Shown: positions 42,585 through 60,353 of the stretch, piece after piece
Layout: each line of letters starts with the position of its first letter
Position numbering within the stretch: the first letter of the stretch is position 1
DNA from: Clostridium cadaveris
GTDB taxonomy: Bacteria; Bacillota; Clostridia; Clostridiales; Clostridiaceae
Reading direction: 5' to 3' (one strand)
NCBI RefSeq assembly: GCF_039521325.1
Contig: NZ_BAAACD010000016.1
Length of the DNA: 64,000 bases
Program-made: the position numbers and the translations under genes
The notes under the pieces: model-generated
The model's database searches: none
Seen by the model: the letters and a program-made list of their open reading frames with translations, nothing else
What the model was told of the DNA's origin: nothing

Positions 42585-42827
42585 AAATATTCCTCCTAAA
42601 ATTAAAGATTCTAAATTGATATAATAATCTCTAATTTTCAAGAAACTATTTACCTAAATGAAACTTTTTTTTGTTAGCATTTCGCTACTTATTTAGTATA
42701 TCACAGTATTTATCTAATTGCAATCTTTTTTTGATTGATTTTTATAAACAGTCAAAATTAATTTAATATTTAGCATACTTTACACCTTATCACATTTGTT
42801 ATTGCATTTATTTTATTCATATTATCA

Positions 42828-43514
42828 TTACTCGACAGCAATATATACATCCATATAAGAAACTCCATCTTTATTGTATTCTTTTTCAAAGCATGATAAA
42901 ACCTCTTTATTTTGTTTATGATTTAAACTATTTACTTCCATATATCGTATAAGTGTTTTGTATGCATTAGGAATTAACGTAAATGGCGCCTTAAACGGTT
43001 CCTTGATTGTAATAGCTACGTACTGATGATGTTCTTGTATGATTTCCTCTGGGCAATCATCTGAAAAATTCTCTGGTATTATACATGCTGCTACATAGCC
43101 ATGCATATGATATACATTTACCTGTTCTTGTGATACAAAAGGAAAATTCCAACCTATTATTTCGGGGTTCTCAATACCATTTAAAATAGCCCAATCATAC
43201 ACATGTTTTTTTGCATCATCTTCTGGTTTACTACTAATTACTGTATATTTAACATATCTGAATAAAGGAACCTTTTCTACACGAATATTTGTATAAGCTT
43301 CATTATCTGAATTCATATTTCCTAATATTATTTCATCTAAAGAACAAGAAAAAAGTTTGCAAAGTTGAATAGCCTTTTCCATTTCTGGAAAGGCAGAATT
43401 CATTTCCCATTTGGATACCGTTTGTCTGGATACATTCATTTTTTCAGCCAATTCTTCTTGTGTCATTCTTTCATGCATTTTTCTAAGAAACTGTAGATTT
43501 TGTCCAAATATCAT
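42828..43514 (-). CDS. XRE-family HTH regulator with a GyrI-like ligand-binding domain
   Basis: HTH MTQEELAEKMNVSRQTVSKWEMN. The C-terminal 150 aa are GyrI-like. Confidence 0.7.
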   Translation of the reverse strand: MIFGQNLQFLRKMHERMTQEELAEKMNVSRQTVSKWEMNSAFPEMEKAIQLCKLFSCSLDEIILGNMNSDNEAYTNIRVEKVPLFRYVKYTVISSKPEDDAKKHVYDWAILNGIENPEIIGWNFPFVSQEQVNVYHMHGYVAACIIPENFSDDCPEEIIQEHHQYVAITIKEPFKAPFTLIPNAYKTLIRYMEVNSLNHKQNKEVLSCFEKEYNKDGVSYMDVYIAVE

Positions 43515-44071
43515 TTTGTTATCCCCCTATTTAATTGATACTTAAATTGTAACTAATAAATAATGAGTAGTACACCAACTTACATTTTCTATTTTTTTAA
43601 TATATGCAACTTAAGGTTGCATGCTGTAAATGCTACATAATATAAAGGATATTCTGTGATATGTATAATCGCCTTTTTTATATTAACAATTCCGTAATGG
43701 ATGGCTACGGAGGTTTTAAACGTTTTATCCTCCTTGGACTATTGGTGATTATTTCATAATAGTTAGGAGGTGATATTGGATATGCTGGAATTAACTATAA
43801 AAAGCTTTTTTGCTATTTATATTATTAGATTAGTTTTAAAACATAATCTTTTTATTTCTAAACTAATTATCAAGATTAAATTTCTTGCATCTCATTTAGC
43901 CCAAAATCATTCATATTAATCTTCCTCATAAATTTCTATTTATCTTCCACTTTTAATTTAATACCTAACTAATTATAACATATTTTGTAAAATTAACATC
44001 GCTTGTGATACGGTATCTTCATCTGTAAAAATAGCCTTAGGCAAGTTATATCAATTCCTAATGCTATGAAT

Positions 44072-44097
44072 CTCATTTATTTATGATACGGTTCTCC
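44072..44097. repeat. Left direct repeat (att core) of the island
   Basis: Identical 26-mer to 59869-59894. Confidence 0.75.
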
Positions 44098-44125
44098 GTA
44101 TCAGTAGTAAGTGAGGTTTTTTTTA

Positions 44126-44815
44126 TTAATAAGTATCCTCTAATCCCATTACTAACTTTATTCTATTCATTAGTTTTTCTCTTAATTTTTTTAGTTGTTC
44201 TTCATTTCCAAACCATAAATCATTATATTCTTCACAAAAAGCCTTATATATTTTATTCTCATCATCTGTATTTTCTATATCTAAAATTCTACAAAGTATC
44301 TCATTATTATTTATACATTTACTTAAGTCACAATATAGTTTACTCATTCTTTCGTTATATAGCCTATTTACTGTATTAGTTGTATATTCTTTATTAGGAA
44401 TTATACATACTACACTTATTCTGCCCTTATTTTTTCCTCTTCCATTATATGCTGGTTCTGATTTATCTTCTTCTATAGATATCTTTACATCATTACTATT
44501 TAAGCAATCACCTTCAATAGTAGAATTATAACATTTTATCCCTTCCTTTTTTAAAATATTTCTGCAATTCTCTAGTTGTGTACTTAGGGCTTTATCTTTT
44601 TTATTTTCATGCTTAAATTTTATTTCTATTGTATTATAAATACTATTTTTAAAATTAAATTCTTCTCTATTTAATACTTCTTTATAATTATAAGTAATGA
44701 CTAATACATAACATTTCTTAACATCTAAATTACATTTGTTGCTCTTAATAAACTTACTAAACTCCCCTTGTATCTTATTATCAAAAATATGAGTATTTTT
44801 TATAATCAATTCCAT
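44126..44815 (-). CDS. Hypothetical protein (island cargo)
   Basis: 229-aa ORF. No recognised motif. Confidence 0.5.
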   Translation of the reverse strand: MELIIKNTHIFDNKIQGEFSKFIKSNKCNLDVKKCYVLVITYNYKEVLNREEFNFKNSIYNTIEIKFKHENKKDKALSTQLENCRNILKKEGIKCYNSTIEGDCLNSNDVKISIEEDKSEPAYNGRGKNKGRISVVCIIPNKEYTTNTVNRLYNERMSKLYCDLSKCINNNEILCRILDIENTDDENKIYKAFCEEYNDLWFGNEEQLKKLREKLMNRIKLVMGLEDTY

Positions 44816-44958
44816 AGATTCATCACTCCGATATAATTTAATATACTAACTATTATTGACATACTTTTAGTATTAATATCTATTATATTAAGTAATATAA
44901 ATTCTAATAAAAGCAAAAGGAGTATCTAATATAATACTCCTTTACTACTCTTTGCTTT

Positions 44959-45501
44959 CTATTTATATTCATTAATATGTTGAGTTACTCTATTATGATA
45001 ATCTATATCTTCTTCCATTGCATCAAATACAACTGCTCTATCTATACCAAATTCATATAACCAACTATAATCATATGTATCAGTCCATGAAACTATAAAA
45101 ACTTTATTAACTGTATTTCTTATCAAGTCATTTAGTATTTCTTTTCTTTGTTCATCTTTCTTTCTACATATTGAATCTACTGGATATAATATAGATACAT
45201 TATATCTTTCATTTCTCCATGACTTTTTATTTATTGTATCTATATACATTCTCAAGTTTCCTACTTTAATTCTTGTATTCAATTTTGCTGATTTGAGACT
45301 ATTTTGAAAAATACTATCAATATTATTTTTTCCATTAATCCTAAATAAAACTTTAACACCGTCTTGTACTGTTTTATTTAATGTTCGTAATACCTCCATA
45401 TGTTTTTCATATTGATGTGTTCCTGTTATAAGCATTACCTTTTCATCATCACTATTTAAAAATTCTATAATTTCTTTTTTTAAATTCTCTCTATTATTCA
45501 T
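44959..45501 (-). CDS. Hypothetical protein (island cargo)
   Basis: 180-aa ORF. No recognised motif. Confidence 0.5.
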   Translation of the reverse strand: MNNRENLKKEIIEFLNSDDEKVMLITGTHQYEKHMEVLRTLNKTVQDGVKVLFRINGKNNIDSIFQNSLKSAKLNTRIKVGNLRMYIDTINKKSWRNERYNVSILYPVDSICRKKDEQRKEILNDLIRNTVNKVFIVSWTDTYDYSWLYEFGIDRAVVFDAMEEDIDYHNRVTQHINEYK

Positions 45502-45567
45502 TTATACCCCACCCTTTATATTAAGATTTTAAAAATAGACTAGGAATTCTCCTAATCTATTTTTGTC

Positions 45568-45792
45568 TTATCCTCTAGGTGGGAAATTATCATTACCATA
45601 AGAATCTTTTTCTCTTATTCTTCCGTTTTTTCCATGAATAATAAGTTCTGATTGTTGATTCTTAGCAATTTCTCTAGCAATATTAATAGCTTCTTTTTGT
45701 GTTTTAGTAGTAGCAGTTGCTCTACTATTTCCAGCTCCTTTAACTTGCCAATTTCCTTTTCCATTAGGTGTCACATGTTGATTTTTTTTCAT
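45568..45792 (-). CDS. DUF2188 family protein
   Basis: …GKGNWQVKGAGNSRATATTKTQKEAINIAREIAKNQQSELIIHGKNGRIREKDSYGNDNFPPRG matches the DUF2188 pattern. Confidence 0.6.
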   Translation of the reverse strand: MKKNQHVTPNGKGNWQVKGAGNSRATATTKTQKEAINIAREIAKNQQSELIIHGKNGRIREKDSYGNDNFPPRG

Positions 45793-45862
45793 CTATATTT
45801 TCACTCCTTTTATATGTTATAAAAGGATGACTTGCTCAAACATCCATCTATGAGCTTTTGCT

Positions 45863-45991
45863 CTATTCTACTGGTATTTTAAAAGCCTTTAACCCGTAAG
45901 TTTTAGCATATATTCTTTGTCCATTTTTAGTTATCCAAGGGCGATATATATACTTCTTATCTTCCTTTTCTTTACTCTTATTATTATTCAT
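45863..45991 (-). CDS. Small basic hypothetical protein (42 aa)
   Basis: AGGAGGTG RBS 7 nt before the ATG. Translation MNNNKSKEKEDKKYIYRPWITKNGQRIYAKTYGLKAFKIPVE. The ORF track starts 47 codons upstream without an RBS. Confidence 0.4.
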   Translation of the reverse strand: MNNNKSKEKEDKKYIYRPWITKNGQRIYAKTYGLKAFKIPVE

Positions 45992-46198
45992 GCTAAAACA
46001 CCTCCTTCTTACAAGAATTTTACCTATTATATGTATAATAAGTAAGTTATCCTTGAAAAAAAGCGACATAACTGTTAAAATATTATTTGCAGTAAATTTA
46101 ACAGTGAGCAAGTTAAGTTCGCTATTTTTCAAGAAATGAAGCTATCTAAGCGCCAACTTAGATATCGCTTCATTTTTTATATTAAACGGATTTTCCGT

Positions 46199-46600
46199 CT
46201 AATCATCACTTTCATTTTCCTTTTCTCCTAGTAGAGTTGCTTTTGTTAGGTCAAAAATCATTACTTGTTCATTTTCATACCAATCACCTAATATACGGTA
46301 ACCTTCTTCTTTTATGTTCCAATTCATAAGTCTTGATAGTGTATAAATAAAATCTTTATTATTAATTCTTACATTTATACTTTTTATATTCTTAAAAAAT
46401 TGTATTGAACCTTCTTCATTTACATCACATATTTGTACTGCAATCATCTTTTTTTCTTCATTCATTAACAAAACTACATTTTTAGGTTTACCCATTTTTA
46501 TAACAGCGTTTTTTGAAAATGTCATTCCATTGTCTGTTATTGATACATATGGTAATCCAGAAGTAAGATTAACTTTTTTAAATCCTTCCAACATATTCAT
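46199..46600 (-). CDS. Hypothetical protein (island cargo)
   Basis: 133-aa ORF with an acidic C-terminus. No recognised motif. Confidence 0.45.
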   Translation of the reverse strand: MNMLEGFKKVNLTSGLPYVSITDNGMTFSKNAVIKMGKPKNVVLLMNEEKKMIAVQICDVNEEGSIQFFKNIKSINVRINNKDFIYTLSRLMNWNIKEEGYRILGDWYENEQVMIFDLTKATLLGEKENESDD

Positions 46601-46949
46601 CTCTCCTCATAATTATTATATTTTTTCAAATAACTTTTGTCAATATCCTATCATTTATTTTTTATTATTTTATCATTTTATATTCATAATCGCGCTTCAA
46701 TTGCATTTATGTTCTAACGATTATTTTTATTATGCATTATTTCAGTTTCATTTCAATCATTATTCAAACCACAAATTTAATCTCTACTCTAAATTATTTT
46801 CCAAGAAATTATCAATATTTTTATTTATTATATCATATTTAATACTTATTTTGTACCTTTTAAGTTGCATAATGTAATAAATGAATCAATATTAAATTTC
46901 ATTAATATCATATTCCGTTCATAATTTCAACTACTATTTTATCTTCTAA

Positions 46950-48647
46950 CTAAATAGTAATATCTAAGTTCAATACACTCATTCCAACATTTCTTAACAT
47001 AAAAGAAGAAGGAGCATCCTTTATAGATACTCCTTCTTCTTTACTTATATAGTCAACCAAGCTATCATTTATCTTCAGTTTTATTGAATCAATTTCTCTT
47101 GTTTCATTTATAGTTATTTCTGATATTATCATATGCAATAACTTCTTCTGTTTCTCTCTACTTGTGCTTTCTGTTAAGACTTTACTAAAATTCTCTAAGA
47201 TACTCTTTATGAATTCATAAGGTACTTCCTCACTTAAATCATCTGAAAGCGTTACAAGTAATGGTTCTTTTTGCTCTTGTAGCATTTTAGCCATCTTGTT
47301 TAGTTCTTCTTTTCTTTCCTTGAACTCCTCCTTGGATATTAAGTCCTCCTCATATCCCTCGAAAAGTTTACGTTTCTTTTTATCTATCTTCTCAAGCTCC
47401 TTATCTATTCTTTGTAGCTCCTTCTTAGCTGGATTTATCTTGTTATGTCTTTCTTCATTAACATTCTTCACTATTGACTTAACCATCTTTTCATTAGAAA
47501 GTAATTCTGATAACTTACTGAATACATACTCATTAGCTTTATCAACTCTTATTGTATTAGAATTACATACGTTTGTACCTTTATTCTTCCATGCTCCACA
47601 ACAGTAGTAAGCTATTCTCTTCTTAGTTCCATCAGCTAACTTATTAGTAGTTCTTGAAATTATCATTCCAGCTCCACACTTTGGACATCTTAGTATCCCA
47701 GTTAATGGATATTCACCATCGTATATCCTTGAAGGCTTACCTTTCTTACTTTCCATAATTGCTTGTACTTTATCCCATAGACTCTCCTCTATTATAGATT
47801 CATGTATTCCATCAGTTATTATTGGATTTGGATTAATATTTCTTCTTCTTTTTTCAGACCAATCTTGTCTCAAATTATATCTTATCTTTCCTATGTACAC
47901 CGGATTAGTTAATATATCTTTTATAGAGACTATTGAAAAATCATTCCCTTTCTTAGTCTTATGCCCTAATTTATTTATCTTATTAGCTATTGCTTTATAT
48001 CCTTTTCCACTAGCATATTCATTAAAAATTATTCTTACAGTTTCTGCTTCTTGTTTATTTATTACAAGTTTAGTGTCTTTTCTTTTCTTATGTTCAGTAC
48101 CTTCAATTGGTACAATATCATATCCTAATACTCGGTTTCCCCCCCAACGCCCTTCTCTTGCTCGTGCTAAGCACACCATTTTTACGTTCTGAGCTATTGT
48201 CCCTCTTTCTAATTCAGCAACTGCTCCCATCATGTGTAATCCAAACTTCCCCATAGGAGTCTCTGTTTCAAAGTTCTCTGAATATGACCTAAAAGCAATT
48301 CCTTTTCTATCTAATACATCTATTATTTCTAGTAAATTTAGCATATTCCTAGCTATTCTACTTATCTTCCAAGTTACTACTATGTCAAATTTTCCCTCCT
48401 CCGCATCTTGTAGCAACTCTTTTAATGCAGGTCTATTTTTAATATTCTTCCCACTAATTCCCCTATCTGAATAGCATTTATAAACTATCCAATCCATAGT
48501 CTTACACCATTCACTTAAAAGCCTTTCTTGGTCATCAATACTATAGCCATCTTACGCTTGTTCTTTTGAACTTACCCTACAGTATATCCCAATACGCTTT
48601 TTTCTTTTCTCCATCATTACATTATGTGCTAAAGTTTTAAAATCCAT
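46950..48647 (-). pseudogene. Ccr-like large serine recombinase (CcrB/CcrC-like) interrupted by an in-frame TAA at codon 32
   Basis: ATG at 48647 with an AAGGAG RBS. Reads MDFKTLAHNVMMEKRKKRIGIYCRVSSKEQA-TAA-DGYSIDDQERLLSEWCKTMDWIVYKCYSDRGISGK…, with the catalytic-Ser motif RVSS upstream of the stop. The downstream body has a resolvase domain, a recombinase domain and a zinc ribbon (CPKCGAGM…YYCCGAWKNKGTNVC) closely resembling staphylococcal CcrB. Confidence 0.75.
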
Positions 48648-48714
48648 AATCAAATCATCTCCTTATATTTAAGGACTTTAAGTTTAAAACAAAAAGTCCT
48701 TTTCTAGTAATATT

Positions 48715-49179
48715 CTATTCAAAGTGAATCTGTGACTCTCCATTTAATCCAAAATTTTTTCTATTGAAACTTGGATTTATCACAACCTCTAAGTTTTCCT
48801 CACTGTGATAATTTAATTCTATTGTATCATCTCCAAACATACCTACTTCTATAAACCAATCTCTAATATTTAATTCATCTACAAAGTCTATAAATTCATC
48901 TAATAATCTTAAATATTGTTCCTTGTTCATAATCACATTATTCTGCTGTGAGAACCACCACACATTAATTCTTGATTTCCTCTCTTCCAATATTATAAAC
49001 TCTGGTTTTATGTGTATATTTTTAAGTAAATTTACTATATTCTCTTTTTCAGTATCTGTTTTATATAATATACCTATTGCTAATCTTGTAAGTACACTTT
49101 CACCATTATACTGGTCTTCTCTAACCACATTCTTGTTAAATTTATCTAATATAATTTGTCTTTGCTCATTTTTATTCAT
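48715..49179 (-). CDS. Hypothetical protein (island cargo)
   Basis: Start at MNKNEQRQIILDKF with a TAGGAGGAAAATCAGT-ATG RBS. 154 aa. Confidence 0.5.
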   Translation of the reverse strand: MNKNEQRQIILDKFNKNVVREDQYNGESVLTRLAIGILYKTDTEKENIVNLLKNIHIKPEFIILEERKSRINVWWFSQQNNVIMNKEQYLRLLDEFIDFVDELNIRDWFIEVGMFGDDTIELNYHSEENLEVVINPSFNRKNFGLNGESQIHFE

Positions 49180-49277
49180 ACTGATTTTCCTCCTATTATT
49201 TATATAATATATATCTGAAAATTTTATCATTACACTTGATATCTAAAGTAATACCAAGTGCAATTTTATTATTTTAA

Positions 49278-49865
49278 TTAGAATTTAATTTCCTCATCTT
49301 CAATCTCTCCTAAATCTATACCTGTACCATACATATTTCTGACAACATTATTATTCTCATACTCTAATGAAGAATAGTCTTCCATTACATTCTCATACAC
49401 AATTTCATTTGCCTTATCATTTATGTAATCAATACTCATTAAGTTATTTCTCTCCATTTTTAAATACTTTTCTTCTTTTTTCTTATTATCATATGCAATA
49501 ATAAGCTCTCCATCTTCAAGATTATAGACATTAGTAACATTGATAAATGTACTCTCTCTTTGTAACTCTATAACTACTTCCTTACCTATTATCTCCTCAT
49601 AATTAAATTCTTCACACTCATCAATTATGTTGAAATTTTCTTTAATAGCTTTTATTAACTTATAAAATAAAAATGTTTTCCATGGTACTATAAGTAAGTA
49701 TTGTTTAACTAATGTTCCATCTTCAAGCTGAAATGTTATATATCCTTGATTAAACACTTTTTGCTTAATAGGCTTTCTACCATTGGGCTGATAACTTTTC
49801 ACTTTACATTTCTTGCATCCTAAAACTATATCTATGTATTTACCACCTTTTGTTATAGTTGCCAT
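49278..49865 (-). CDS. Hypothetical protein (island cargo)
   Basis: 195-aa ORF with an acidic C-terminus. Confidence 0.5.
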   Translation of the reverse strand: MATITKGGKYIDIVLGCKKCKVKSYQPNGRKPIKQKVFNQGYITFQLEDGTLVKQYLLIVPWKTFLFYKLIKAIKENFNIIDECEEFNYEEIIGKEVVIELQRESTFINVTNVYNLEDGELIIAYDNKKKEEKYLKMERNNLMSIDYINDKANEIVYENVMEDYSSLEYENNNVVRNMYGTGIDLGEIEDEEIKF

Positions 49866-49943
49866 TTTAATCGATCCCCTTTAACTTTTTATTTTATTAA
49901 CTTGATACCAAGCATATTCTTAATTGGTATCAAGTATATGTAC

Positions 49944-50042
49944 CTACTGTTTCTTTTCAGGAACTTTACCTTGTTTAATATAATCTAGTATCACTTGAGA
50001 TAAAATCTCCATTATCTCCTCTACCCTTTTAGACTTGTCCAT
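49944..50042 (-). CDS. Small hypothetical protein (32 aa)
   Basis: TAAGGAGGTAGAAAAT-ATG strong RBS. Translation MDKSKRVEEIMEILSQVILDYIKQGKVPEKKQ. Confidence 0.4.
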   Translation of the reverse strand: MDKSKRVEEIMEILSQVILDYIKQGKVPEKKQ

Positions 50043-50065
50043 ATTTTCTACCTCCTTAAAGATAT

Positions 50066-50698
50066 TTATCTTACTTTTATTATTGCAACAGTATAACCAT
50101 TACATTTAACATAGTTAACTTCTGAAAAAGTAATTGATACTGTATTACTGAAATCTAAGCTATACTTATCAGTTATCTCTAATACCAGTCCAGAAGAATA
50201 AATTACTCCTTTCCTACCACTACTCTTAAGTTTTAGTAAATTATCATTATTGGGTAATCTTTCTGCTATTGCTAAACTATCATCAGAAAATGATATTGAT
50301 ATAGTATTAGGATTATTTAGCTTATAAATTACCTCACTAGATAAAACTATTCTTTTGCAACTTTTTGAATTGATAACAGACATAACTCCTGCTTTAGTAC
50401 TTGTTTTAGATATTGTCTTACTTGTTGATGCTTTAAAGTTTCCTAAATCATATTCTTGCATTATGTCTTGATTATCATTTATATTTATTTCTTCACTTAA
50501 ATCTTCTCTTTCTTGTTCACTATATCTTTCTAGCTCCATTCTTTCTATTGCCTCTCTATTCTCTTGCATCATTTGCTCTATAGTTTTTCTAGGCTTTCTT
50601 TGTATATTTTTCTTTTCCTCTTCTGCTAAATTACTCCTTGCTTGAATATCCCTTGTTGATGGTACAGGTCTCCTTCTTATTACTGCCATTTTTATCAT
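50066..50698 (-). CDS. Hypothetical protein (island cargo)
   Basis: 210-aa ORF. Basic N-terminus MAVIRRRPVPSTRDIQARSN. Confidence 0.5.
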   Translation of the reverse strand: MIKMAVIRRRPVPSTRDIQARSNLAEEEKKNIQRKPRKTIEQMMQENREAIERMELERYSEQEREDLSEEININDNQDIMQEYDLGNFKASTSKTISKTSTKAGVMSVINSKSCKRIVLSSEVIYKLNNPNTISISFSDDSLAIAERLPNNDNLLKLKSSGRKGVIYSSGLVLEITDKYSLDFSNTVSITFSEVNYVKCNGYTVAIIKVR

Positions 50699-51242
50699 TC
50701 TCCTTTTTTATTTTTATAAATTTAAAATAACCCTTTGTAAACGTTTTCTTATTTTTGTGTGACTCTCCCCCTTTATAAATGAATAATTATAAATTTTTGC
50801 TCAATCTTTAATTACTATTAATTTAAGTTTTGACTATTATTAATTTAAACTTACTTTGTATTGATAATTATAGCAGCATTTTTTATATTTGCAACTCACC
50901 AAATGCATTGATACTGCTAACTTTAAGGCATATTTATTCTTTGATTTTCTTCTAAGAAACACCTTGTAATTAAGGATTTCCTAACACTTATCTATTAAAA
51001 TCCTTACACTCCAAAATTTCCTTGTTTAAAAGACTTTGCACCTTACAAGGCAGGTTTTCCTTATGCTCAACAAGATTTTTTTCAAAAACTCCCTTACATT
51101 TTGTGTATAAAAATTCATTTTTAATTCCATAAATGTATAAAAATTTATTTTTTTATTTTTCTATTATATTCTAAAAGCATACTACCTCCAAAAAAAATAG
51201 AGTCTTAACTTATTTTATAAGTAAATTAAGACTCTAATACTT

Positions 51243-51980
51243 CTAATATGCTGGTTCAGTTGGTTTAGCACTTCCTGGGTTAAATATATAGGTATTCCCA
51301 TTATCTACATAATCAAATGGAATAGCTGTTTTATTATATTCATTAAACATCTCATCCATTGTTAATGACTTATTTAAATGTGGGACATAGTATCTCTTTT
51401 CTAATGATTGCTGATTCTTCTTTTCTTCTGCAATTCTTTGAGCTTCTATTTCATTTATTGCTTCATAAGACTTCTTTACTAATTCATCAGCTTTTACCTT
51501 TTGCTCATCTGTTACATATTGTGAAGCTAGTATCTTATCATTTATATGACTTTTACATTCAGCATATTGTTTATTATTCAACATATTCTCAGCTTCATTT
51601 AATAATGCTGTTATATTTTCAACCTCTTTCAAGTAATTATTTATCTGACTTTTTAAGTTATCTATATCATCTTTTATTACATAGTTTATATAATCACTAT
51701 TTATTCCATCAATTATCTCTTTAGCTTCTGCTATTTTATTCTCATCAACTAGCTTTTTAGCTTTCTGATAACCATCAACTATTGAATATAATTTATTAGC
51801 TTCTTCATTCTCTTTATCTTCATCAAGAGCTAGTTGTAATGATGCTAATGCTTTATCATACTCTTTACTTTCTATTGAAGTCTTAGCTTGTTCAATTGAT
51901 TTCTTTACAACGCTATTTCCACATCCAACAAGTATTAATGTCAGCATTAGTAATAGCATTATTGATACTTTTCTTTTCAT
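51243..51980 (-). CDS. Hypothetical lipoprotein with a coiled-coil region
   Basis: MKRKVSIMLLLMLTLILVGCGNS, lipobox LVGC. Confidence 0.6.
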   Translation of the reverse strand: MKRKVSIMLLLMLTLILVGCGNSVVKKSIEQAKTSIESKEYDKALASLQLALDEDKENEEANKLYSIVDGYQKAKKLVDENKIAEAKEIIDGINSDYINYVIKDDIDNLKSQINNYLKEVENITALLNEAENMLNNKQYAECKSHINDKILASQYVTDEQKVKADELVKKSYEAINEIEAQRIAEEKKNQQSLEKRYYVPHLNKSLTMDEMFNEYNKTAIPFDYVDNGNTYIFNPGSAKPTEPAY

Positions 51981-51990
51981 ACCTTCTCTT

Positions 51991-52296
51991 CTACTCCTTA
52001 CTTCCCTTAAATTTATTATATAAATAGTACCCTATATAACCTATTACTCCTATCATTAAGGCTAGTCTTATTAAAAACCATAGTACAGAAATTACTCCTC
52101 CAACTAGTCCTCCTAGGAAATTAACTATGAAAGCTCCTACTATACAACATCCAACCCACATAGTTATCATAGCTCCAAATCCAAAATGTATAATATCGAA
52201 AATCTTATGTAGTAATATAAATATTCCTGTTCCTATTATTAAAGTAACTATTACTGCTATAATGCTTGTTAATCCACCTGCATCAAAAATATTCAT
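51991..52296 (-). CDS. Hypothetical small membrane protein
   Basis: 101 aa, 3 TM helices. GAGGAG RBS. Its ATG overlaps the stop of the upstream ORF (TAATG). Confidence 0.5.
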   Translation of the reverse strand: MNIFDAGGLTSIIAVIVTLIIGTGIFILLHKIFDIIHFGFGAMITMWVGCCIVGAFIVNFLGGLVGGVISVLWFLIRLALMIGVIGYIGYYLYNKFKGSKE

Positions 52297-52460
52297 TATT
52301 TCTTTTCTCCTCTCTCCCTCTTATTTATCCCATTTTTATTTATTACTTTTTGTAGCCAATTACATGTATATCCTAATTTCCTTGATATCTGTTTTAGGTT
52401 CTTTCCATCATAATACTTATTTAAATAATCAATTACATACTTATCTGAATATAATCTCAT
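52296..52460 (-). CDS. Small HTH-like protein (54 aa); possibly the C-terminal part of a longer ORF that runs to about 52658, separated by an in-frame TAG
   Basis: MRLYSDKYVIDYLNKYYDGKNLKQISRKLGYTCNWLQKVINKNGINKRERGEKK. No RBS of its own. The upstream ORF 52476-52658 is in the same frame with a TAG between them. Confidence 0.35.
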   Translation of the reverse strand: MRLYSDKYVIDYLNKYYDGKNLKQISRKLGYTCNWLQKVINKNGINKRERGEKK

Positions 52461-52887
52461 TGGAAATGTTATCTGCTAACCTTTATAATTCTCATATACT
52501 TTTAATGTTATCTCATGCCCTAAAACTTCAACCATATCCTTATAGATACCTCTGTAATTTTCACTTTTTCTACTCATATCCTCCTTATCCATCATCTCCT
52601 TTTCTATCCCATTCAATATTACCTCCTTTAAAAATTTTTCATAAGATTGAAAAAACAAGTAATTTTACAAGAGAAAATCACTTGTCTTTAATTAAACTTT
52701 GTAATTCATAACTACTTAACTATAATTACTCCTTTCTTAATATTTCTCTATATAAAAAGAGTTAATGCTCCTTTTATTAGAAACATTAACTCTCTTATCA
52801 TATTTATAATATATATTTAATCACATCATTAAAAACATTTGATTTAGCCTTTATTCGTAGCTTTTATTTTGATTGCTATTATTCATT

Positions 52888-52945
52888 CACACTTTCTGAA
52901 ATCTCTGCTTTCTGATGTGTTATCGTTGCTTTTTGATACATTCAT
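52888..52945. repeat. Imperfect direct repeat, copy A (extends to about 90 bp at roughly 85% identity)
   Basis: ttcacactttctgaaatctctgctttctgatgtgttatcgttgctttttga pairs with 53899-53956, ttcacattttctgaaatctctgttttctgatgtgctatcgttgctttttga. Confidence 0.6.
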
Positions 52946-52959
52946 ATTAATTGGTAGAT

Positions 52960-53520
52960 TAAATTTAACTTATATTTTTAATGATTTAATTTTATGTTAT
53001 GATTAGTTGCTATCTATGACTTATTAGTATCTATTCTTATTACACTATCATTTTATCTTTTCTTATCTCTATCTACCATTGATTATTATTTCATCCATTA
53101 ATTAGAGTTTCTTTATTCTATTATTATTACTTAGGATAGTTATTATTTCTTTATTAGTTCTTATCATTACTACATCTGATTAGTTATCTTAGTATTATTA
53201 CTCTAATTATCTTACTCAATTAACTTAATGAATTATCAATCTTTGATTATTATACTTCTTGATATTCTTATTATAGTTTTTACTTGATTACTTATCTTAG
53301 TAAATATTATTATTCTAATTACATCTATTAATTATTACTACAATTCTTAATTGATTATAATTTCTTTATCCTACTATCATATCTGATTAATTATATTATT
53401 TTTCTTATTCTGATTATAGTTAATTCTTATCAATCTATACTTCTTTATTACTTTATTCTTATTATCTTTTCTTCTATTCTATCTTTATTTTAATTGAAAT
53501 AGATTTTTAGTAATCTATTT
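52960..53520. repeat. G-depleted (about 6% G on the plus strand), about 80% AT, non-coding low-complexity tract with dispersed (c/t)tgatta and tcttat motifs
   Basis: Direct count of G per 60-nt line is 1-8. No ORF of 60 aa or more in any frame. A second similar tract lies at 53957-54215. Confidence 0.55.
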
Positions 53521-53530
53521 CAATTCTTAT
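53494..53530 (+). terminator. Perfect 11-bp hairpin followed by a T-rich run (plus-strand terminator-like)
   Basis: ttgaaatagat/ttttagta/atctatttcaa then ttcttattttt. Confidence 0.35.
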
Positions 53531-53546
53531 TTTTCTTTAGTCTCTT

Positions 53547-53560
53547 CCCCCCCTCCCCCC
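53547..53560. repeat. Homopolymeric tracts C7-T-C6
   Basis: cttccccccctccccccgtcgc. The only GC-rich spot in a roughly 1.4-kb AT-rich non-coding segment. Confidence 0.7.
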
Positions 53561-53898
53561 GTCGCTTTTTACAAGCTCCGTGTTCTCAGTGCCTCTATCC
53601 TAGTTCCAAGCTTCATTATTTATATGTTTTAGCTCTCTCATTTTTTTTATTTTTGAGTGGAATTGATTTATCCGCTACATATTTTATGTTCCCGATTCTC
53701 TTTGATTTCAAGTGGAATTAGGAACGGTAGGATTTCCTATGCTTTCAGCTTTCGGTATTCCTTTATGCCTTGTTATACTAGATTGTAAAGTTATCAATCT
53801 ACTCTCTACTATGAATTTCAGTACCTTTTCATCAGTTCATCTGAAAACCGTCGATTTAACCTCTATTTACAGCTTTTCAATTTTGGTGCTATTCTTAT

Positions 53899-53956
53899 TC
53901 ACATTTTCTGAAATCTCTGTTTTCTGATGTGCTATCGTTGCTTTTTGAGGTATTCC
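53899..53956. repeat. Imperfect direct repeat, copy B
   Basis: See copy A. The copies are about 1010 bp apart. Confidence 0.6.
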
Positions 53957-54216
53957 TCCAACTGAATGACTAGGATTCTCTATTACATTTCTAATCTTTC
54001 AAGTAAAAGTATCTATTATTATTTTCTTGTGCTTATAACTTCTTATTTCTCTTTTCTTTATTACTCACTTCTTAATTTCTTAACTTATAAGCATTAGTAT
54101 TTATTAACTACTAAAAAAATATATTCTTAACTTATTATAATAATATCGTTATAATCAAGTTATTATTTCTTAATTATAACGATACTATCTTTCTTAACTT
54201 ATTACTTCTTTATTTA

Positions 54217-54300
54217 CTACTTCTTATTTATTGCTTCTACAGAAGTTGCTACAACTGTTAATATTGTTCCAACTACTTTGATTACTGCTATAACATCCAT
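54217..54300 (-). CDS. Candidate small hydrophobic peptide (27 aa), translationally coupled to the upstream gene
   Basis: GGAGGAG RBS overlaps the stop of 54313-54660. MDVIAVIKVVGTILTVVATSVEAINKK is a hydrophobic helix with a charged tail. Confidence 0.4.
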   Translation of the reverse strand: MDVIAVIKVVGTILTVVATSVEAINKK

Positions 54301-54312
54301 TAATTTCTCCTC

Positions 54313-54677: not shown

Positions 54678-54986
54678 TTAGTATTCTGATGGTAGAAGCA
54701 TAGTTGAATATTCTACACTATCAATTACATAGATTTTAATACCATAATCTATCTGAATATCTTCTAGCTCTATTTCATATGTGCATGAGTATTCAGGAAC
54801 TTCTTGACTTTGATTTATTACAACCTTATTTCCTTCTTTTCTTATCTTGAAAACTTGTAAGTAATCTAGTTCAATATTTTCTTCATCATTCAATTTATCA
54901 ATCATACTCCACATTATAATTTGTAGTATTATGTCTACTTCCTCATTTATACCTCTAGTTACATACCTATTATTTTTCTTGAACAT
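54678..54986 (-). CDS. DUF960 family protein
   Basis: MFKKNNRYVTRGINEEVDIILQIIMWSMIDKL… This family is typically found in Firmicute ICEs and in SCC ccr-region backbones. Confidence 0.55.
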   Translation of the reverse strand: MFKKNNRYVTRGINEEVDIILQIIMWSMIDKLNDEENIELDYLQVFKIRKEGNKVVINQSQEVPEYSCTYEIELEDIQIDYGIKIYVIDSVEYSTMLLPSEY

Positions 54987-55893: not shown

Positions 55894-57657
55894 TTAATAC
55901 CTTATTGTAAACTCTGAATTATTAAACATATCTCTTTCTAATTCCTCAACAGTCATTTCTCCTGACTTTATTTTTTCAGCTCCAAGCAATAAATTTACCA
56001 CATTAACAGCCGCACCATTAACTCCAGTACTCATACTTAATCTTCTTAATTGTTCTTCAAACTTACCCTTAAACGAACCAGATATAAATACAAAATAATA
56101 TTTTTGAACCTCTTCTGAAAAGTTTTCCCACCATTTATTAGGATTTATTTGCTCGTCTCTGTTAGAATTTTCTCTTACATACCTTTCCATCTCATCTGCT
56201 TGACTTATAGGCAAACTATATCCTTCCGAATATGCCTTAGTATCTACAATAATCCCAAAATTATCCTCTAAAGTCGTAGAATATACTATACCATCAGGTT
56301 TTCTACTTCCCCCGAGATGTCTACCCTTAAATCCATATTCATTAACTAATAATTCCAACACTTTCATTTCAAATAGTCTATTTTGCTTACTATCAAATGC
56401 TAAGTCTATTAATGATAGGTAATCATGAGAAATATTAGTTATTTGCTCTCTTAGCTCATCTTTCAACAAACTAATTTTGCTCTTTATCTCTTCTGCATCT
56501 CCTAACTTAGGTATAATAAAATCATTAATGGTATCATACATCTTATAACCTTTAGTCTCACTCTTAATATTTATCCCTGTATTAATTAATCCATTAATAT
56601 CGTCTTTAATAGTACTAATAGATTCATTAATATTAGCTAATTTTAACTTATCTTTTATATTCTCTAAAGTTAATACTTTACTAGTTTCAATTAATATTTT
56701 TAAAATATACGACCTTCTAGTTCTTATATAATTTTTGTCTATCCCTTTTGTAGCAAACATTTCCCAAAAAACATTTTTCGAAACTCTAGCTACTTTATTT
56801 ATTCCTAATAATCTTCTAACTGCTTTTAGACCCTTATCTGTAATCATATAAGCATGTCCTATCGTTTCACTATACATTTCTCCACCAAAATTTACAGTAA
56901 CTAACTTAGGTCTTTGTACCAATAACCCTAGTTTCACTAGCCACCCTGAAATCATCCTAGCATATTTGTCTGATGACCCATCCCAATCAGTTTTAATTTT
57001 ATTTTTTTCCTTTGGGTCATCAGTAGTAGCTAATGTCATAATTAGTACATTTAATGGTAAGCTTGTAAATCCTGCTTCTCCAGTAAAACCCAATTTCTTA
57101 CCTATCTCATATTTTGTTAAGTGCTCTCCATTAGAAAGTAATGTTAAAACTCTTGCTACTGGTGGATATGATAACATCGCTTCTTCTAAAATTATGTTTT
57201 CTTCTTGACTACCATCTTCACTTTGTACATATCTTTTCCCTAGCTCTGATATCTCAAATGTATCTGTATCATAGTTATATTTAATAAACCCTAATGCATG
57301 TGCCCATCTAACAAAATTATCTGATGACCAATCATCTATAAACTCCTTTCTTTGACCCTTTACAGTTGCTTGTACTATTGCATTACATCGTGCAGAACTT
57401 CTTGGCGTAAAGGATGTGCCAACTAACTTGTAATACTCTATCTTTAAAGGATTTACGCTTAATGCATTTATTAACTCCTTTTGACCATCTCTTTCTTCTA
57501 CTAATTTCTTTATTCTCTTATCTCTTAACTCGATATGTATCTTTGATGTGTTATCAAAAATGGAGACAACTTTTTTTAAACTTTCAAAATTACTTGGATT
57601 TTGAACCCAGCCAAAAGTTCTAATAGTTTTATTATTTACATCTATTATCTTAATCAT
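55894..57657 (-). CDS. Type IIS restriction endonuclease, FokI family
   Basis: 587 aa, colinear with FokI. Shared blocks: IRTFGWVQNP, WSSD.F.RWAHALGFI, SYPP…ILTLL, KYARMI.GWL.KLGL, RTRR..IL.ILI, KGLINTGI. Cleavage domain EMKV.E…YG..G.HLGGSRKPDG.IY…G.IVDTKAYS.GY.LPI.QADEM.RYV.EN…INPN.WW. Confidence 0.9.
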   Translation of the reverse strand: MIKIIDVNNKTIRTFGWVQNPSNFESLKKVVSIFDNTSKIHIELRDKRIKKLVEERDGQKELINALSVNPLKIEYYKLVGTSFTPRSSARCNAIVQATVKGQRKEFIDDWSSDNFVRWAHALGFIKYNYDTDTFEISELGKRYVQSEDGSQEENIILEEAMLSYPPVARVLTLLSNGEHLTKYEIGKKLGFTGEAGFTSLPLNVLIMTLATTDDPKEKNKIKTDWDGSSDKYARMISGWLVKLGLLVQRPKLVTVNFGGEMYSETIGHAYMITDKGLKAVRRLLGINKVARVSKNVFWEMFATKGIDKNYIRTRRSYILKILIETSKVLTLENIKDKLKLANINESISTIKDDINGLINTGINIKSETKGYKMYDTINDFIIPKLGDAEEIKSKISLLKDELREQITNISHDYLSLIDLAFDSKQNRLFEMKVLELLVNEYGFKGRHLGGSRKPDGIVYSTTLEDNFGIIVDTKAYSEGYSLPISQADEMERYVRENSNRDEQINPNKWWENFSEEVQKYYFVFISGSFKGKFEEQLRRLSMSTGVNGAAVNVVNLLLGAEKIKSGEMTVEELERDMFNNSEFTIRY

Positions 57658-57737: not shown

Positions 57738-59735
57738 TTAGTAATTAGTTATCAATACCTCTTCACTTTTTCCTTTTTTTGTATTATAACTTGAATTAGA
57801 GTAATCATGATTAAGATTATTAATATTATATTTTTTACTCCACTCTTTTAATATATTATTGCTCTTCCCTTTATGCTCTAATACATTTGATAAAGCAAAC
57901 TTAATCCCTTTCTCATTAGCTTTATCCAGATATTCTAACAACATAACTTCTTCATTTTCAGTCCAATTTTTAAAACCTCTATTTCCGTCATTATATGAGC
58001 CTGTAGTAATCAAATATGGAGGGTCACAATAAATAAAGCTATTTTTATCTAAGTTATCAAATGATACATCAATAAAATCATTGCATGTAAAACTTATATT
58101 CTTACTATGCATACTCTTTAAAAATTCAATTAAGTTCCCTTTAAGAACCGATGAAAATTGACTTCTATTTCTTCCAAATGGATTATTGTATTCAAAATTT
58201 TTATTAAATCTAAATTGGTAATTAAAGGAGTAACATACTAAAGTATATAAATCTAATGGCATTTTTGTTTTATTATAATACTCTCTAAATGCCTTAAATC
58301 CATCTTCATTTTCCTTTGTTAATTTAAACTCTTTTATTCTATTCTCAATATAATTTAATATATATTCATCAGTATTATTTTTAAATTCATTAAATAATTC
58401 TATCACAAAATTATTATAATCGTTGCATATTATATTTTTTGCCTCAACATTAATTCCTACATTGCATCCTCCTGCAAATAAGTCTACAAATGTTTCTATT
58501 TTTTTAGGAAACATAGGTATTATCTGATTTAGTAACTTATACTTACCACCAATGTAGTTTAAAGGACTTTTTATATATTTTTTCTTTTGTTTTCCTTTAT
58601 ATTTGTTTACGTTACATTTGCATATTTCATTTTTTTTACTTTTATCTTCTTGTACACTATCACTTTGCTTTCTGATATAAAAAATCAACTCATATAATTC
58701 TATAATTTTTTGCTCATGTTTACTCTTATATTTTCTATATGGTATCTTATACAATTTAAATGTCTCTTCAACCCCGTACTTTTTCAATATTTGTTCTATT
58801 TCATCAGAAGACATTAAGCCATCTGTACTATAACTAACGATTATATGTTTAAAATTAGAATCTTTGATTAGTGACTCAAAAGAATCTTTTACTTGCTTTT
58901 TGTTACAATATTTAGACTTTTGATTTTCATAATTTCTTAAACCAGTTACTCCATATAGCTCTGGATAATCATATTTAGCTATAGTCTCCAAAACATGATA
59001 GTTAGGTACATATTGTCTTGAGTTGTACGGTGGGTCTAAATATAAAATATCCCCTTTAATTTTTTTTATTAATTCATTAGCATCTTCATTAAAGCATCTA
59101 TTCTCTCTCTCATTGTCTATTACCTCTAATTTTTTTAACTCAATCTTATTTAAAGCTCTTTTATCCCATTTCTTTAAATATGCTCCATAAGTCCCTGATA
59201 TATTTGATACATATGGTATTCCTTCAAGTAAACAAGCTAATAAATATGCATATTCATTAAAATCTATAATATTATCTCTTTTCCACTCATCTAGCTTAAC
59301 TCTTATAAAATCTATCCTATTAGCATTTTCTTTGGTTATATACATTCTATTAGATTTATTGCTAGGTGCGTAATGATTACTTGCAAAATATACTCTATCA
59401 TTAAAATTAATATCGCTAATATCAAATGTTTCTAAATAATTTATAGGGTCATCTATGCCAATACTTTTTAATTTAATAAATTCAGGAATTTTATTATTCT
59501 CTACTGTTGCTTTCTGTAATATATAAGAAAAATACATCAAATCGTTAGAGTATACTTGATAATATTCCTTGAAATATCTAGCTACAGTTCCTGTTCCTGA
59601 AAAAATATCGCAAAAAGTGTTAGCTTTATCACTAACATTCTCGTCTATTACTTCTTTTATCTTATCTAACAATAAGACTTTACTTCCTATATATCTCATA
59701 TCTTCTATCTCCTCATTTCTTACATCCCTAAACAT
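57738..59735 (-). CDS. Type IIS modification methyltransferase, M.FokI-like (two fused N6-adenine MTase domains)
   Basis: 665 aa with two DPPY motifs (LYLDPPYNSRQY and IYCDPPYLITTGSYNDGNRGFK). The C-terminus …KKGKSEEVLITNY is near-identical in pattern to M.FokI. Confidence 0.9.
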   Translation of the reverse strand: MFRDVRNEEIEDMRYIGSKVLLLDKIKEVIDENVSDKANTFCDIFSGTGTVARYFKEYYQVYSNDLMYFSYILQKATVENNKIPEFIKLKSIGIDDPINYLETFDISDINFNDRVYFASNHYAPSNKSNRMYITKENANRIDFIRVKLDEWKRDNIIDFNEYAYLLACLLEGIPYVSNISGTYGAYLKKWDKRALNKIELKKLEVIDNERENRCFNEDANELIKKIKGDILYLDPPYNSRQYVPNYHVLETIAKYDYPELYGVTGLRNYENQKSKYCNKKQVKDSFESLIKDSNFKHIIVSYSTDGLMSSDEIEQILKKYGVEETFKLYKIPYRKYKSKHEQKIIELYELIFYIRKQSDSVQEDKSKKNEICKCNVNKYKGKQKKKYIKSPLNYIGGKYKLLNQIIPMFPKKIETFVDLFAGGCNVGINVEAKNIICNDYNNFVIELFNEFKNNTDEYILNYIENRIKEFKLTKENEDGFKAFREYYNKTKMPLDLYTLVCYSFNYQFRFNKNFEYNNPFGRNRSQFSSVLKGNLIEFLKSMHSKNISFTCNDFIDVSFDNLDKNSFIYCDPPYLITTGSYNDGNRGFKNWTENEEVMLLEYLDKANEKGIKFALSNVLEHKGKSNNILKEWSKKYNINNLNHDYSNSSYNTKKGKSEEVLITNY

Positions 59736-59868
59736 CCATTTAATATTACTATATTTATATTAAAAATTCAATAGATTTAATAAACTATTACTTTTTAATA
59801 TAAAAAAGGCTACTATCAAAATGCTTTCATAGTAACCACTAAATTCATTATCCAATTTTAGTAAAAAC

Positions 59869-59894
59869 CTCATTTATTTATGATACGGTTCTCC
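59869..59894. repeat. Right direct repeat (att core) overlapping the rlmH 3' end
   Basis: Identical 26-mer to 44072-44097. On the minus strand it encodes …GEPYHK*. Confidence 0.75.
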
Positions 59895-60353
59895 CTTAAT
59901 TATCCTAAATCCTCTATATATCTGTTCTAGAAGCATAACTCTGAATAGTTGGTGTGGAAATGTCATTTTTGAGAAACATAATTTATAGCTTGCTCTATTT
60001 AAAACATCTTGTGAAAGTCCAAGGCTTCCTCCTATAATAAATACTAGATTTGAGTTACCTTGTATGCCACAGTTATCTATGAAATATGAAAATTCCTCTG
60101 AGGAAAGTGTCTTTCCTTTTAGATCCATAGCTATTACATAGGCATTATCTTTGATTTTTGATAGGATTTGGGCCCCTTCCTTTTCTTTAATTTGAAGTTC
60201 TTCCTTTTCTGAAGCATTATCTGGTGTTTTTTCATCTGCCACTTCTATAACTTCAAGTTTGCAGTATTTGCTTAATCTTTTTGAGTACTCATCTATAGCA
60301 TCTCTTAAGAATTTTTCTTTTATTTTTCCTACTGTTATAAGGGTTATATTCAT
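59874..60353 (-). CDS. rlmH: 23S rRNA (pseudouridine1915-N3)-methyltransferase RlmH (the orfX equivalent)
   Basis: 159-aa SPOUT MTase. …IIGGSLGLSQDVLNRASYKLCFSKMTFPHQLFRVMLLEQIYRGFRIIKGEPYHK. Confidence 0.9.
   Translation of the reverse strand: MNITLITVGKIKEKFLRDAIDEYSKRLSKYCKLEVIEVADEKTPDNASEKEELQIKEKEGAQILSKIKDNAYVIAMDLKGKTLSSEEFSYFIDNCGIQGNSNLVFIIGGSLGLSQDVLNRASYKLCFSKMTFPHQLFRVMLLEQIYRGFRIIKGEPYHK

What the first reader, a model, noticed from the sequence alone, without database searches (positions are those of the whole stretch)
46950..48647. Ccr-like recombinase carries a premature in-frame TAA just after its catalytic serine motif
Reading from the RBS-preceded ATG at 48647 gives 31 codons, including the resolvase active site RIGIYCRVSSKEQA. 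A TAA follows, and then the frame continues uninterrupted for 515 more codons (DGYSIDDQ…). Translation restarting at the downstream Met would lack the catalytic Ser, so the cassette is probably immobilised. Alternatively this is a sequencing or assembly error, or a regulated readthrough.
Basis: seen in the sequence. Interest (0 to 1): 0.55.

Follow-up and report, generated by a model that had tools for sequence, protein, structure and literature searches.

The report
Dead recombinase in clostridial rlmH cassette
The only integration/excision enzyme of a 15.8-kb mobile DNA cassette sitting behind the rlmH gene of Clostridium cadaveris has been knocked out by a single-base stop mutation, an ordinary case of a mobile element decaying in place while its restriction-modification cargo stays intact.

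Summary
On the minus strand, 48647-46950 is a 565-codon large serine recombinase gene with an in-frame TAA at codon 32 (48552-48554), six codons after the catalytic Ser26. All 120 closest homologs are intact and have Glu there, and a 99%-identical intact allele has GAA, so this is a GAA->TAA point mutation. A separate read-level assembly (Logan SRR30814726) carries the same stop. The allele has also changed four further residues that are invariant or nearly invariant in the family (pN about equal to pS). Stops in relatives fall at other positions, and TAA is the window's main terminator. It is therefore a true pseudogene, not an error or a recoding site. The gene is the sole recombinase of a 15.8-kb SCC-like cassette at the 3' end of rlmH in Clostridium cadaveris. 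The cassette has 29-nt direct repeats, terminal inverted repeats and FokI-type R-M cargo, and other strains show the empty site. A second cassette gene, a Mor-family regulator, also carries a nonsense codon. The cassette most likely cannot move by itself, but its att sites are intact, so a related recombinase could still move it. This is ordinary decay with known precedents, and the cassette family itself is the more interesting part.

The parts
46950..48647 (-). Large serine recombinase pseudogene (CcrB/CcrC-like). It spans 565 codon positions and is interrupted at codon 32.
   Evidence: Resolvase, Recombinase and Zn_ribbon_recom domains; 98% identity to the intact 565-aa P0001; best NCBIfam hits are CcrB and CcrC.
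48552..48554 (-). In-frame TAA (codon 32), derived from GAA (Glu).
   Evidence: the 99%-identical allele in L002 has GAA. Glu32 is invariant in 120 homologs.
48555..48647 (-). A 31-codon N-terminal fragment carrying Arg24 and the catalytic Ser26 (RIGIYCRVSSKEQA).
   Evidence: TP901-1 integrase 3bvp residues 3-134 align with query residues 17-148. L001 has a 31-aa ORF called here.
46950..48497 (-). The 515-aa ORF from Met51, which lacks the catalytic Ser. It is deposited as GAA0682061.1, 'recombinase family protein'.
59874..60353 (-). rlmH (23S rRNA pseudouridine methyltransferase), the integration target.
   Evidence: SPOUT_MTase, 210 bits; named RlmH, Clostridium cadaveris.
59866..59894 (-). 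rlmH-proximal att direct repeat, GGAGAACCGTATCATAAATAAATGAGGTT, which includes the rlmH stop codon.
   Evidence: family D16: 29 nt, 28 of 29 identical, spacing 15,797.
44069..44097 (-). Distal att direct repeat.
44096..44121 (.). Terminal inverted repeat, paired with 59863-59888 (26 nt, 85% complementary).
   Evidence: I4.
57738..59735 (-). FokI-type double-domain N6-adenine methyltransferase (cargo, full length).
   Evidence: MethyltransfD12, 283 bits; MTase_II, 955 bits over positions 1-641 of a 646-position profile.
55894..57657 (-). FokI-type type IIS restriction endonuclease (cargo, full length).
   Evidence: four FokI domains; REase_II, 641 bits.
54678..54986 (-). DUF960 protein, a family defined on staphylococcal proteins and conserved in these cassettes.
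   Evidence: Also found in L001, L002 and L008.
52296..52577 (-). Mor-family regulator gene with an in-frame TAG at 52476-52478 (from CAG, Gln). This is the second nonsense mutation in the cassette.
   Evidence: about 40 homologs have GQQ at this point. L001 carries the same stop.
43899..44068 (-). A remnant of about 170 bp from another insertion, lying between the distal att and the chromosome. It holds a degenerate att-like site at 43997-44017 and a partial att at 43884-43898.
   Evidence: comparison with the empty site in L006, and homology to L009 509-613.

Best explanation
This is a genuine nonsense-mutated pseudogene. A single G-to-T change turned Glu32 (GAA) of a CcrB/CcrC-like large serine recombinase into TAA. 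Translation from the normal start ends after 31 residues. Any product restarted downstream (first in-frame ATG is Met51) lacks Arg24 and the catalytic Ser26, so it cannot cut DNA. The gene is the only recombinase of a 15.8-kb SCC-like cassette inserted at the 3' end of rlmH in Clostridium cadaveris, with a FokI-type restriction-modification system as its main cargo. The cassette can therefore no longer excise or integrate by itself and is being fixed in place. Its att repeats are still intact, so a related recombinase supplied in trans could still move it. What is shown: the stop, its derivation from GAA, its reproducibility in a second assembly, the cassette boundaries, and the empty site in other strains. 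What is inferred: loss of activity and immobilisation.
For: (1) The stop is at codon 32 of a full-length large serine recombinase frame. (2) 120 homologs of 552-565 aa are intact with Glu32 invariant, and the 99.1%-identical DNA allele in L002-L004 has GAA. (3) The Logan assembly of SRR30814726 (L001) is 99.976% identical over 12.6 kb, differs at 2 SNPs and 1 indel elsewhere, and has the identical gene with the TAA. (4) Constraint looks relaxed in this lineage. Against L002, codons 1-471 show 5 non-synonymous and 1 synonymous difference (pN 0.0044, pS 0.0036). All five non-synonymous changes (E32*, E39D, G158V, V329I, V471L) fall on columns that are invariant or at least 90% conserved in the 120 homologs, and L002 keeps the consensus residue at each. 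(5) A second cassette gene, the Mor-family regulator, carries CAG->TAG. (6) Decay is common in this family. Six of 80 species-level relatives have in-frame stops at other positions (query positions 30/41, 138, 175, 213, 230, 241), and one has a frameshift. The other occupied C. cadaveris rlmH sites hold no intact recombinase. (7) Cassette anatomy: 29-nt direct repeats and 26-nt inverted repeats; the empty site is seen in seven loci; this is the only recombinase in the window. (8) Across the family the att core lies only on the recombinase strand, and 18 of 80 loci have rlmH upstream in the same orientation.
Against: No read pile-ups could be inspected. I cannot show that SRR30814726 is an independent isolate rather than a re-sequencing of the same strain. 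The dN/dS argument rests on six substitutions. Loss of excision was not tested. Only 64 kb of the genome is visible, so another Ccr-like recombinase elsewhere could still move the cassette. Low-level readthrough or reinitiation cannot be excluded from sequence alone.
Confidence: 0.88

Rival explanations
1. Sequencing or assembly error: the true codon is GAA and the recombinase is intact.
For: One base separates TAA from the GAA found in every relative. The source is a draft contig of 194,528 bp, and no reads could be examined.
Against: A separate assembler working from raw reads (Logan, SRR30814726) gives the same TAA, while differing from the window at three other positions. Substitution errors at consensus level are rare. 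The allele has four more changes at conserved sites, and a second cassette gene carries a nonsense codon that is also present in L001. That pattern fits real decay, not a single miscall.
Confidence: 0.04
2. Programmed readthrough or stop-codon recoding yields a full-length active recombinase at a regulated low level.
For: Low expression of recombinases is often advantageous. The cassette has two in-frame stops (TAA and TAG), which could superficially suggest suppression.
Against: The stop is absent from all 120 close homologs and from 80 genomic relatives, so no recoding site is conserved. The sequence after the stop matches that of the intact allele, so no dedicated signal exists. TAA ends 35 and TAG ends 19 of 57 long ORFs in the window. 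No tRNA is found in the window. The two stops replace different amino acids (Glu and Gln). Invariant residues downstream, such as Gly158, have been lost, which would not be expected if the full-length protein were still under selection.
Confidence: 0.02
3. The 515-aa product restarted at Met51 is made and retains a non-catalytic role. With its DNA-binding, zinc-ribbon and coiled-coil domains intact, it could bind att sites and block or modulate recombination by related enzymes.
For: The frame after the stop remains open for 533 codons. The C-terminal DNA-binding domains are intact by Pfam. The deposited annotation treats the ORF as a protein.
Against: No recognisable ribosome-binding site precedes Met51 (sequence). 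The product would carry two-thirds of a catalytic domain that is unlikely to fold. The open frame is equally well explained by the mutation being recent (0.4% divergence from the intact allele). Changes at invariant sites inside the retained part (G158V, V329I, V471L) argue against purifying selection on it.
Confidence: 0.05

Closest known systems
Staphylococcal cassette chromosome (SCC/SCCmec) with its Ccr recombinases, including naturally truncated ccrB1 (NCTC10442) and ccrB4 (HDE288) and ccr-less pseudo-SCC elements
   Same: Insertion at the last codons of rlmH. Direct repeats contain the rlmH 3' end (here GAACCGTATCATAAATAA), with imperfect terminal inverted repeats. The recombinase is a large serine recombinase closest to CcrB and CcrC. 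A DUF960 gene is present. The island is composite and carries an extra att remnant. The cargo is anti-phage defence. Inactivated ccr genes occur in nature (PMC3225876; PMC11470126; PMC10061031).
   Different: The host is Clostridium sensu stricto, not Staphylococcus. There is a single recombinase rather than a ccrAB pair. The CcrB and CcrC model scores (410 and 348 bits) are far below the 900-bit equivalog cut-offs. No cch/helicase or polA-SSB replication module was seen. The family carries a Mor-type regulator and a conserved noncoding module instead. The inactivation here is a nonsense codon rather than a frameshift.
Insertions at the rlmH 3' end flanked by GAACCGTATCA in Clostridioides difficile, C. 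perfringens, Romboutsia and others (Tet P determinant; PMC12232799)
   Same: The same 11-nt repeat, identical to the rlmH 3' end, flanks the inserted DNA. The same taxa (Clostridium, Romboutsia) appear among the recombinase relatives found here.
   Different: That paper names no recombinase and proposes homologous recombination. Here a CcrB/C-like serine recombinase family is consistently linked to the site in the same orientation. The cargo differs: R-M here, tetA(P)/tetB(P) there.
Enterococcus cassette chromosome (ECC) with ccrABEnt (PMC6222049, PMC3068701), and rlmH islands in other Bacillota (PMC10061031)
   Same: SCC-like cassettes outside staphylococci, at rlmH, with large serine recombinases and variable cargo.
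   Different: Those use ccrAB pairs or different replication modules. No clostridial (sensu stricto) cassette of the present type was found in the searched literature.
SPbeta prophage integrase SprA/YokA (PDB 9dxh), the closest solved large serine recombinase
   Same: The same domain order aligns over residues 35-516.
   Different: Only distant sequence similarity (E 8.5e-28). SprA is a phage integrase targeting spsM, not rlmH.

Membership tests
Large serine recombinase (resolvase/invertase superfamily, integrase type) | N-terminal resolvase catalytic domain, followed by a recombinase domain and a zinc-ribbon domain with a coiled-coil. | tested here: met
   PF00239 (142 bits, residues 21-168), PF07508 (91 bits), PF13408 (45 bits); alignment to SPbeta SprA over residues 35-516.
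Large serine recombinase (resolvase/invertase superfamily, integrase type) | Catalytic serine in the R-x-S motif near the N terminus, on the same polypeptide as the rest of the enzyme. | tested here: not met
   The motif YCRVSS is present, and Ser26 aligns with Ser12 of TP901-1 integrase by the offset. However, a TAA at codon 32 separates it from the remaining 533 codons. The gene belongs to the family by descent but does not encode a complete enzyme.
Staphylococcal CcrB / CcrC equivalogs (NCBIfam NF047343 / NF047347) | Whole-protein score at or above the curated cut-off of 900 bits. | tested here: not met
   CcrB 410 bits and CcrC 348 bits, measured on the intact relative P0001. These are the closest curated families, but the protein is not an equivalog.
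SCC-type cassette | Site-specific insertion at the 3' end of rlmH, with the empty site seen in related strains. | tested here: met
   seven C. cadaveris loci have rlmH followed directly by the HTH gene. The window matches them up to 59869 and again from 43898.
SCC-type cassette | Flanking direct repeats that contain the rlmH terminal sequence, and imperfect terminal inverted repeats. | tested here: met
   29-nt direct repeat (28 of 29 identical) and 26-nt inverted repeat (85% complementary).
SCC-type cassette | Carries functional ccr gene(s) that excise and integrate the element. | tested here: not met
   The single Ccr-like gene is a nonsense pseudogene. In staphylococcal terms the element therefore corresponds to a pseudo-SCC.
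SCC-type cassette | Excision to a circular form and re-integration. | not testable with these tools
   This needs PCR across attB/attSCC or inspection of read pairs.
Pseudogene by nonsense mutation | An in-frame stop at a position that is a sense codon in intact orthologs, seen again in independent data. | tested here: met
   Glu32 invariant; GAA in L002; L001 carries the same TAA.
Pseudogene by nonsense mutation | Relaxed purifying selection on the interrupted gene. | tested here: inconclusive
   5 non-synonymous and 1 synonymous difference, pN/pS about 1.2, with all non-synonymous changes at conserved columns and on this lineage. The direction is clear, but the numbers are small.

The most novel reading that the evidence does not exclude
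The recombinase belongs to a widespread and so far undescribed 'clostridial cassette chromosome' family. Its features would be a single CcrB/C-like serine recombinase near the distal end, a Mor-type regulator, DUF960, a conserved 27-aa hydrophobic mini-ORF and a conserved noncoding module of about 470 nt, all targeting the GAACCGTATCATAA core at the rlmH 3' end in Clostridium, Romboutsia and Lachnospiraceae. This family would be the missing agent behind the rlmH-flanked insertions, including Tet P, that have been attributed to homologous recombination. The copy in this window would be a fossilised member that keeps its R-M cargo.
Probability: 0.45. Interest if true: 0.5.

Novelty: new member of a known kind. 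Interest (0 to 1): 0.27.

Why it matters
The stop codon itself matters little. It shows one more mobile cassette losing its mobility gene, and it shows that the deposited annotation (a 515-aa 'recombinase family protein') hides a pseudogene. The context is more useful. It shows that rlmH in Clostridium cadaveris is a variable insertion hotspot of the staphylococcal SCC type. It links a specific CcrB/C-like recombinase family to the GAACCGTATCA-flanked insertions already reported in pathogenic clostridia. It also suggests that such islands are often left stranded, without a working recombinase, while keeping defence cargo such as a FokI-type restriction-modification system, which may itself favour retention of the island. 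That bears on how resistance and defence genes spread, or stop spreading, among clostridia.

Tried and rejected
- **Phage match:** Megablast of the region against the phage collection found nothing, and the context is not a prophage.
- **Flanking-gene look-up:** Looking up the SEC-C flanking protein returned only a 1.1-kb contig. The HTH flanking gene gave the useful empty sites.
- **Recoding:** Rejected from stop-codon usage, the absence of tRNAs in the window, and the lack of any conserved stop in relatives.
- **Second recombinase:** A second recombinase in the window that could complement the defect was sought by tblastn and not found.
- **Structured RNA in the ORF-free stretch:** Rfam found nothing at the gathering threshold or at E<=1. 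RNAalifold on 12 homologs gave a covariation term of +0.27 and only 1 of 56 pairs with a compensatory change, so no RNA is claimed.
- **Promoters and terminators there:** The scan was at background level.

Full report
**Observation.** On the minus strand, the frame that starts at the ATG at 48647 reads MDFKTLAHNVMMEKRKKRIGIYCRVSSKEQA, then TAA at 48552-48554, then an uninterrupted frame to TAG at 46950-46952. An AAGGAG lies 11 nt upstream of the ATG. The figure 515 is the length of the ORF from the next in-frame ATG, Met51 at 48497. With the stop masked, the protein has the full architecture of a large serine recombinase: Resolvase (142 bits), Recombinase (91 bits) and Zn_ribbon_recom (45 bits). 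The catalytic-domain alignment to TP901-1 integrase (3bvp residues 3-134 against query 17-148) places Ser26 opposite that enzyme's Ser12. That Ser12 is the nucleophile rests on my own knowledge of the enzyme.

**Where the stop came from.** A protein search returned 2,800 relatives. The best 120 are 552-565 aa and intact, and the closest (P0001) is 98% identical over the full length. In an alignment of those 120, Glu32 is invariant. Three metagenome contigs encoding P0001 (L002-L004) share 99.1% nucleotide identity with window 46960-49972, and their codon 32 is GAA. The TAA is therefore a single G-to-T substitution of GAA.

**Is the stop real?** The exact 515-aa product is encoded on a Logan contig assembled independently from run SRR30814726 (L001). 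That contig matches window 42642-55255 at 99.976%. It differs at two SNPs (51128, 45507) and one homopolymer indel (42672), and its recombinase gene is identical to the window's, TAA included. I cannot tell whether that run is the same strain, but it is a separate read-to-consensus path.

The allele also looks as if it has been drifting. Against L002, codons 1-471 carry five non-synonymous changes and one synonymous change (pN 0.0044, pS 0.0036). All five (E32*, E39D, G158V, V329I, V471L) fall on columns that are invariant or at least 90% conserved in 120 homologs, and L002 keeps the consensus residue at each. Codons 516-565 show a dense cluster of differences (pS 0.23), which looks like a recombination boundary rather than decay.

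**Recoding is not supported.**
- TAA ends 35 and TAG ends 19 of 57 long ORFs in the window.
- No tRNA gene is found in the window.
- None of 80 genomic relatives has a stop at codon 32. Six have in-frame stops elsewhere (query positions 30/41, 138, 175, 213, 230, 241) and one has a frameshift. That gives a base rate of roughly one disrupted copy in ten.

**Context.** The host is Clostridium cadaveris, named from exact matches of RlmH, an SPFH protein and other window proteins. The 515-aa product is deposited as GAA0682061.1, 'recombinase family protein', and has no WP_ accession although its neighbours do.

The gene lies in a cassette directly downstream of rlmH (59874-60353, minus strand). 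The last bases of rlmH, GGAGAACCGTATCATAAATAAATGAG, recur 15,797 bp away as a 29-nt direct repeat (59866-59894 and 44069-44097, 28 of 29 identical). The ends also carry a 26-nt imperfect inverted repeat.

Seven C. cadaveris loci from other assemblies have rlmH followed directly by the HTH gene that lies at 42828-43514 in the window. The window matches such an empty site up to 59869 and again from 43898. The roughly 170 bp between the distal repeat and the chromosome (43899-44068) is a remnant of another insertion, with a degenerate att-like site at 43997-44017 and homology to L009. The island is therefore composite, as in staphylococci.

The main cargo is a full-length FokI-type type IIS methyltransferase and endonuclease pair. 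The cassette also holds a DUF960 gene and several genes without family matches. tblastn finds no other recombinase in the 64 kb.

**Is it Ccr-like?** Among curated families, the intact relative scores best against staphylococcal CcrB (410 bits) and CcrC (348 bits). XisF scores 152 and CcrA 95. The CcrB, CcrC and CcrA scores are all well below their equivalog cut-offs of 900, 900 and 700 bits.

Across the 80 genomic relatives (Clostridium, Romboutsia, Lachnospiraceae and others), the att-core motif occurs only on the recombinase strand. It typically lies 0.5-4 kb downstream of the gene. 18 loci show rlmH within 10 kb upstream in the same orientation. The family therefore behaves like Ccr, targeting the rlmH 3' end, without being a member of the staphylococcal equivalogs.

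The literature already records SCC-like rlmH islands in enterococci and other Bacillota (PMC6222049, PMC10061031). It also records GAACCGTATCA-flanked insertions at rlmH in C. difficile, C. perfringens, Romboutsia and others, without naming a recombinase (PMC12232799). Naturally truncated ccr genes are known, namely ccrB1 of NCTC10442 and ccrB4 of HDE288 (PMC3225876).

**More decay in the same cassette.** A small Mor-family gene (about 52577-52296) is a conserved companion of this recombinase in roughly 40 loci. In the window it carries TAG at 52476-52478 where the homologs have the first Gln of a GQQ motif, that is CAG->TAG, and L001 has the same stop.

In the other occupied C. cadaveris rlmH sites that I could see, L009 retains only 59-aa and 25-aa C-terminal remnants of a recombinase, and L008 and L012 have none. 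Short C-terminal recombinase fragments also lie downstream of full-length genes in several other species. Loss of the recombinase is a common fate of these islands.

**Mechanism and verdict.** Shown: a GAA->TAA nonsense mutation at codon 32 of the only recombinase of a precisely delimited rlmH cassette, seen in two assemblies and accompanied by other signs of decay. Inferred: no catalytically competent protein is made, because the normal product ends at residue 31 and any restart product lacks Arg24 and Ser26. The cassette therefore cannot excise or integrate by itself. Because the att repeats are intact, a related recombinase could still move it in trans, and the R-M cargo may favour its retention.

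This is an ordinary pseudogene of a known kind. The cassette family around it is the more interesting part and is not clearly described for Clostridium sensu stricto in the literature I could search.

Noticed in passing
window 52296-52577 (-), stop at 52476-52478: A Mor-family regulator gene in the same cassette has an in-frame TAG where about 40 homologs have Gln (GQQ motif). The homolog in L016 (Clostridium sp. K13) has a stop at the same codon plus two more.
   Followed up: yes
window 53480-53975 (-), with a partial duplicate at 52760-52960: A noncoding segment of about 470 nt lies between the 115-aa gene and the Mor gene. It is conserved at 74-93% identity in at least 12 loci from different species and includes GGGGGGAnnGGGGGG and a perfect 14-nt hairpin. 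The intergenic gap varies from 193 to 1739 nt across the family. There is no Rfam match and covariation is weak, so its role (ori, regulatory DNA or unstructured RNA) is unknown.
   Followed up: partly
window 54217-54300 (-): An unannotated 27-codon ORF (MDVIAVIKVVGTILTVVATSVEAINKK) with a strong RBS sits directly after the 115-aa gene and is conserved in more than 20 related loci. Its hydrophobic helix and basic tail resemble a type I toxin or small membrane peptide. That resemblance is speculation and was not tested.
   Followed up: partly
window 43899-44068: A remnant of about 170 bp from an earlier or neighbouring insertion, with a degenerate att-like site (GATACCGTATCACAAGCGATG, 43997-44017), homologous to L009 509-613. 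It makes the island composite.
   Followed up: yes
window 46950-47102 (codons 516-565 of the recombinase): The 3' end of the gene is mosaic relative to the otherwise 99%-identical allele (pS 0.23 against 0.004 upstream). This looks like a recombination breakpoint at the border between the conserved module and the variable cargo.
   Followed up: partly
L009 665-875 and 6467-6541; L041, L044, L046, L053, L054, L095; L042 10001-10429: Orphan C-terminal fragments of this recombinase family (and in L042 an N-terminal fragment) lie next to full-length genes or in recombinase-less islands. This suggests repeated deletion or recombination between tandem cassettes.
   Followed up: partly
L008/L012 and L009 (C. 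cadaveris rlmH loci): Other C. cadaveris strains carry different cargo at the same rlmH site: a D12 methyltransferase with DUF6996/6997, radical SAM with WYL, and a DUF87 ATPase with a DpnII/MboI-like protein. Several internal att copies are present. The site is a defence-gene hotspot.
   Followed up: partly
window 46950-48497 (-): The public record annotates the 515-aa downstream ORF as an ordinary 'recombinase family protein' (GAA0682061.1). It has no WP_ accession although its neighbours do, so the pseudogene status is hidden in that annotation.
   Followed up: no
window 16131-16301 (-): A lysine riboswitch (RF00168, 94 bits) lies upstream of the operon at about 12943-16020.
   Followed up: no
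window 48552-48554, 48174-48176, 47235-47237: Three of the five lineage-specific non-synonymous changes in the recombinase are G-to-T on the coding strand (GAA->TAA, GGG->GTG, GTA->TTA). There are too few events to call this a mutational signature.
   Followed up: no
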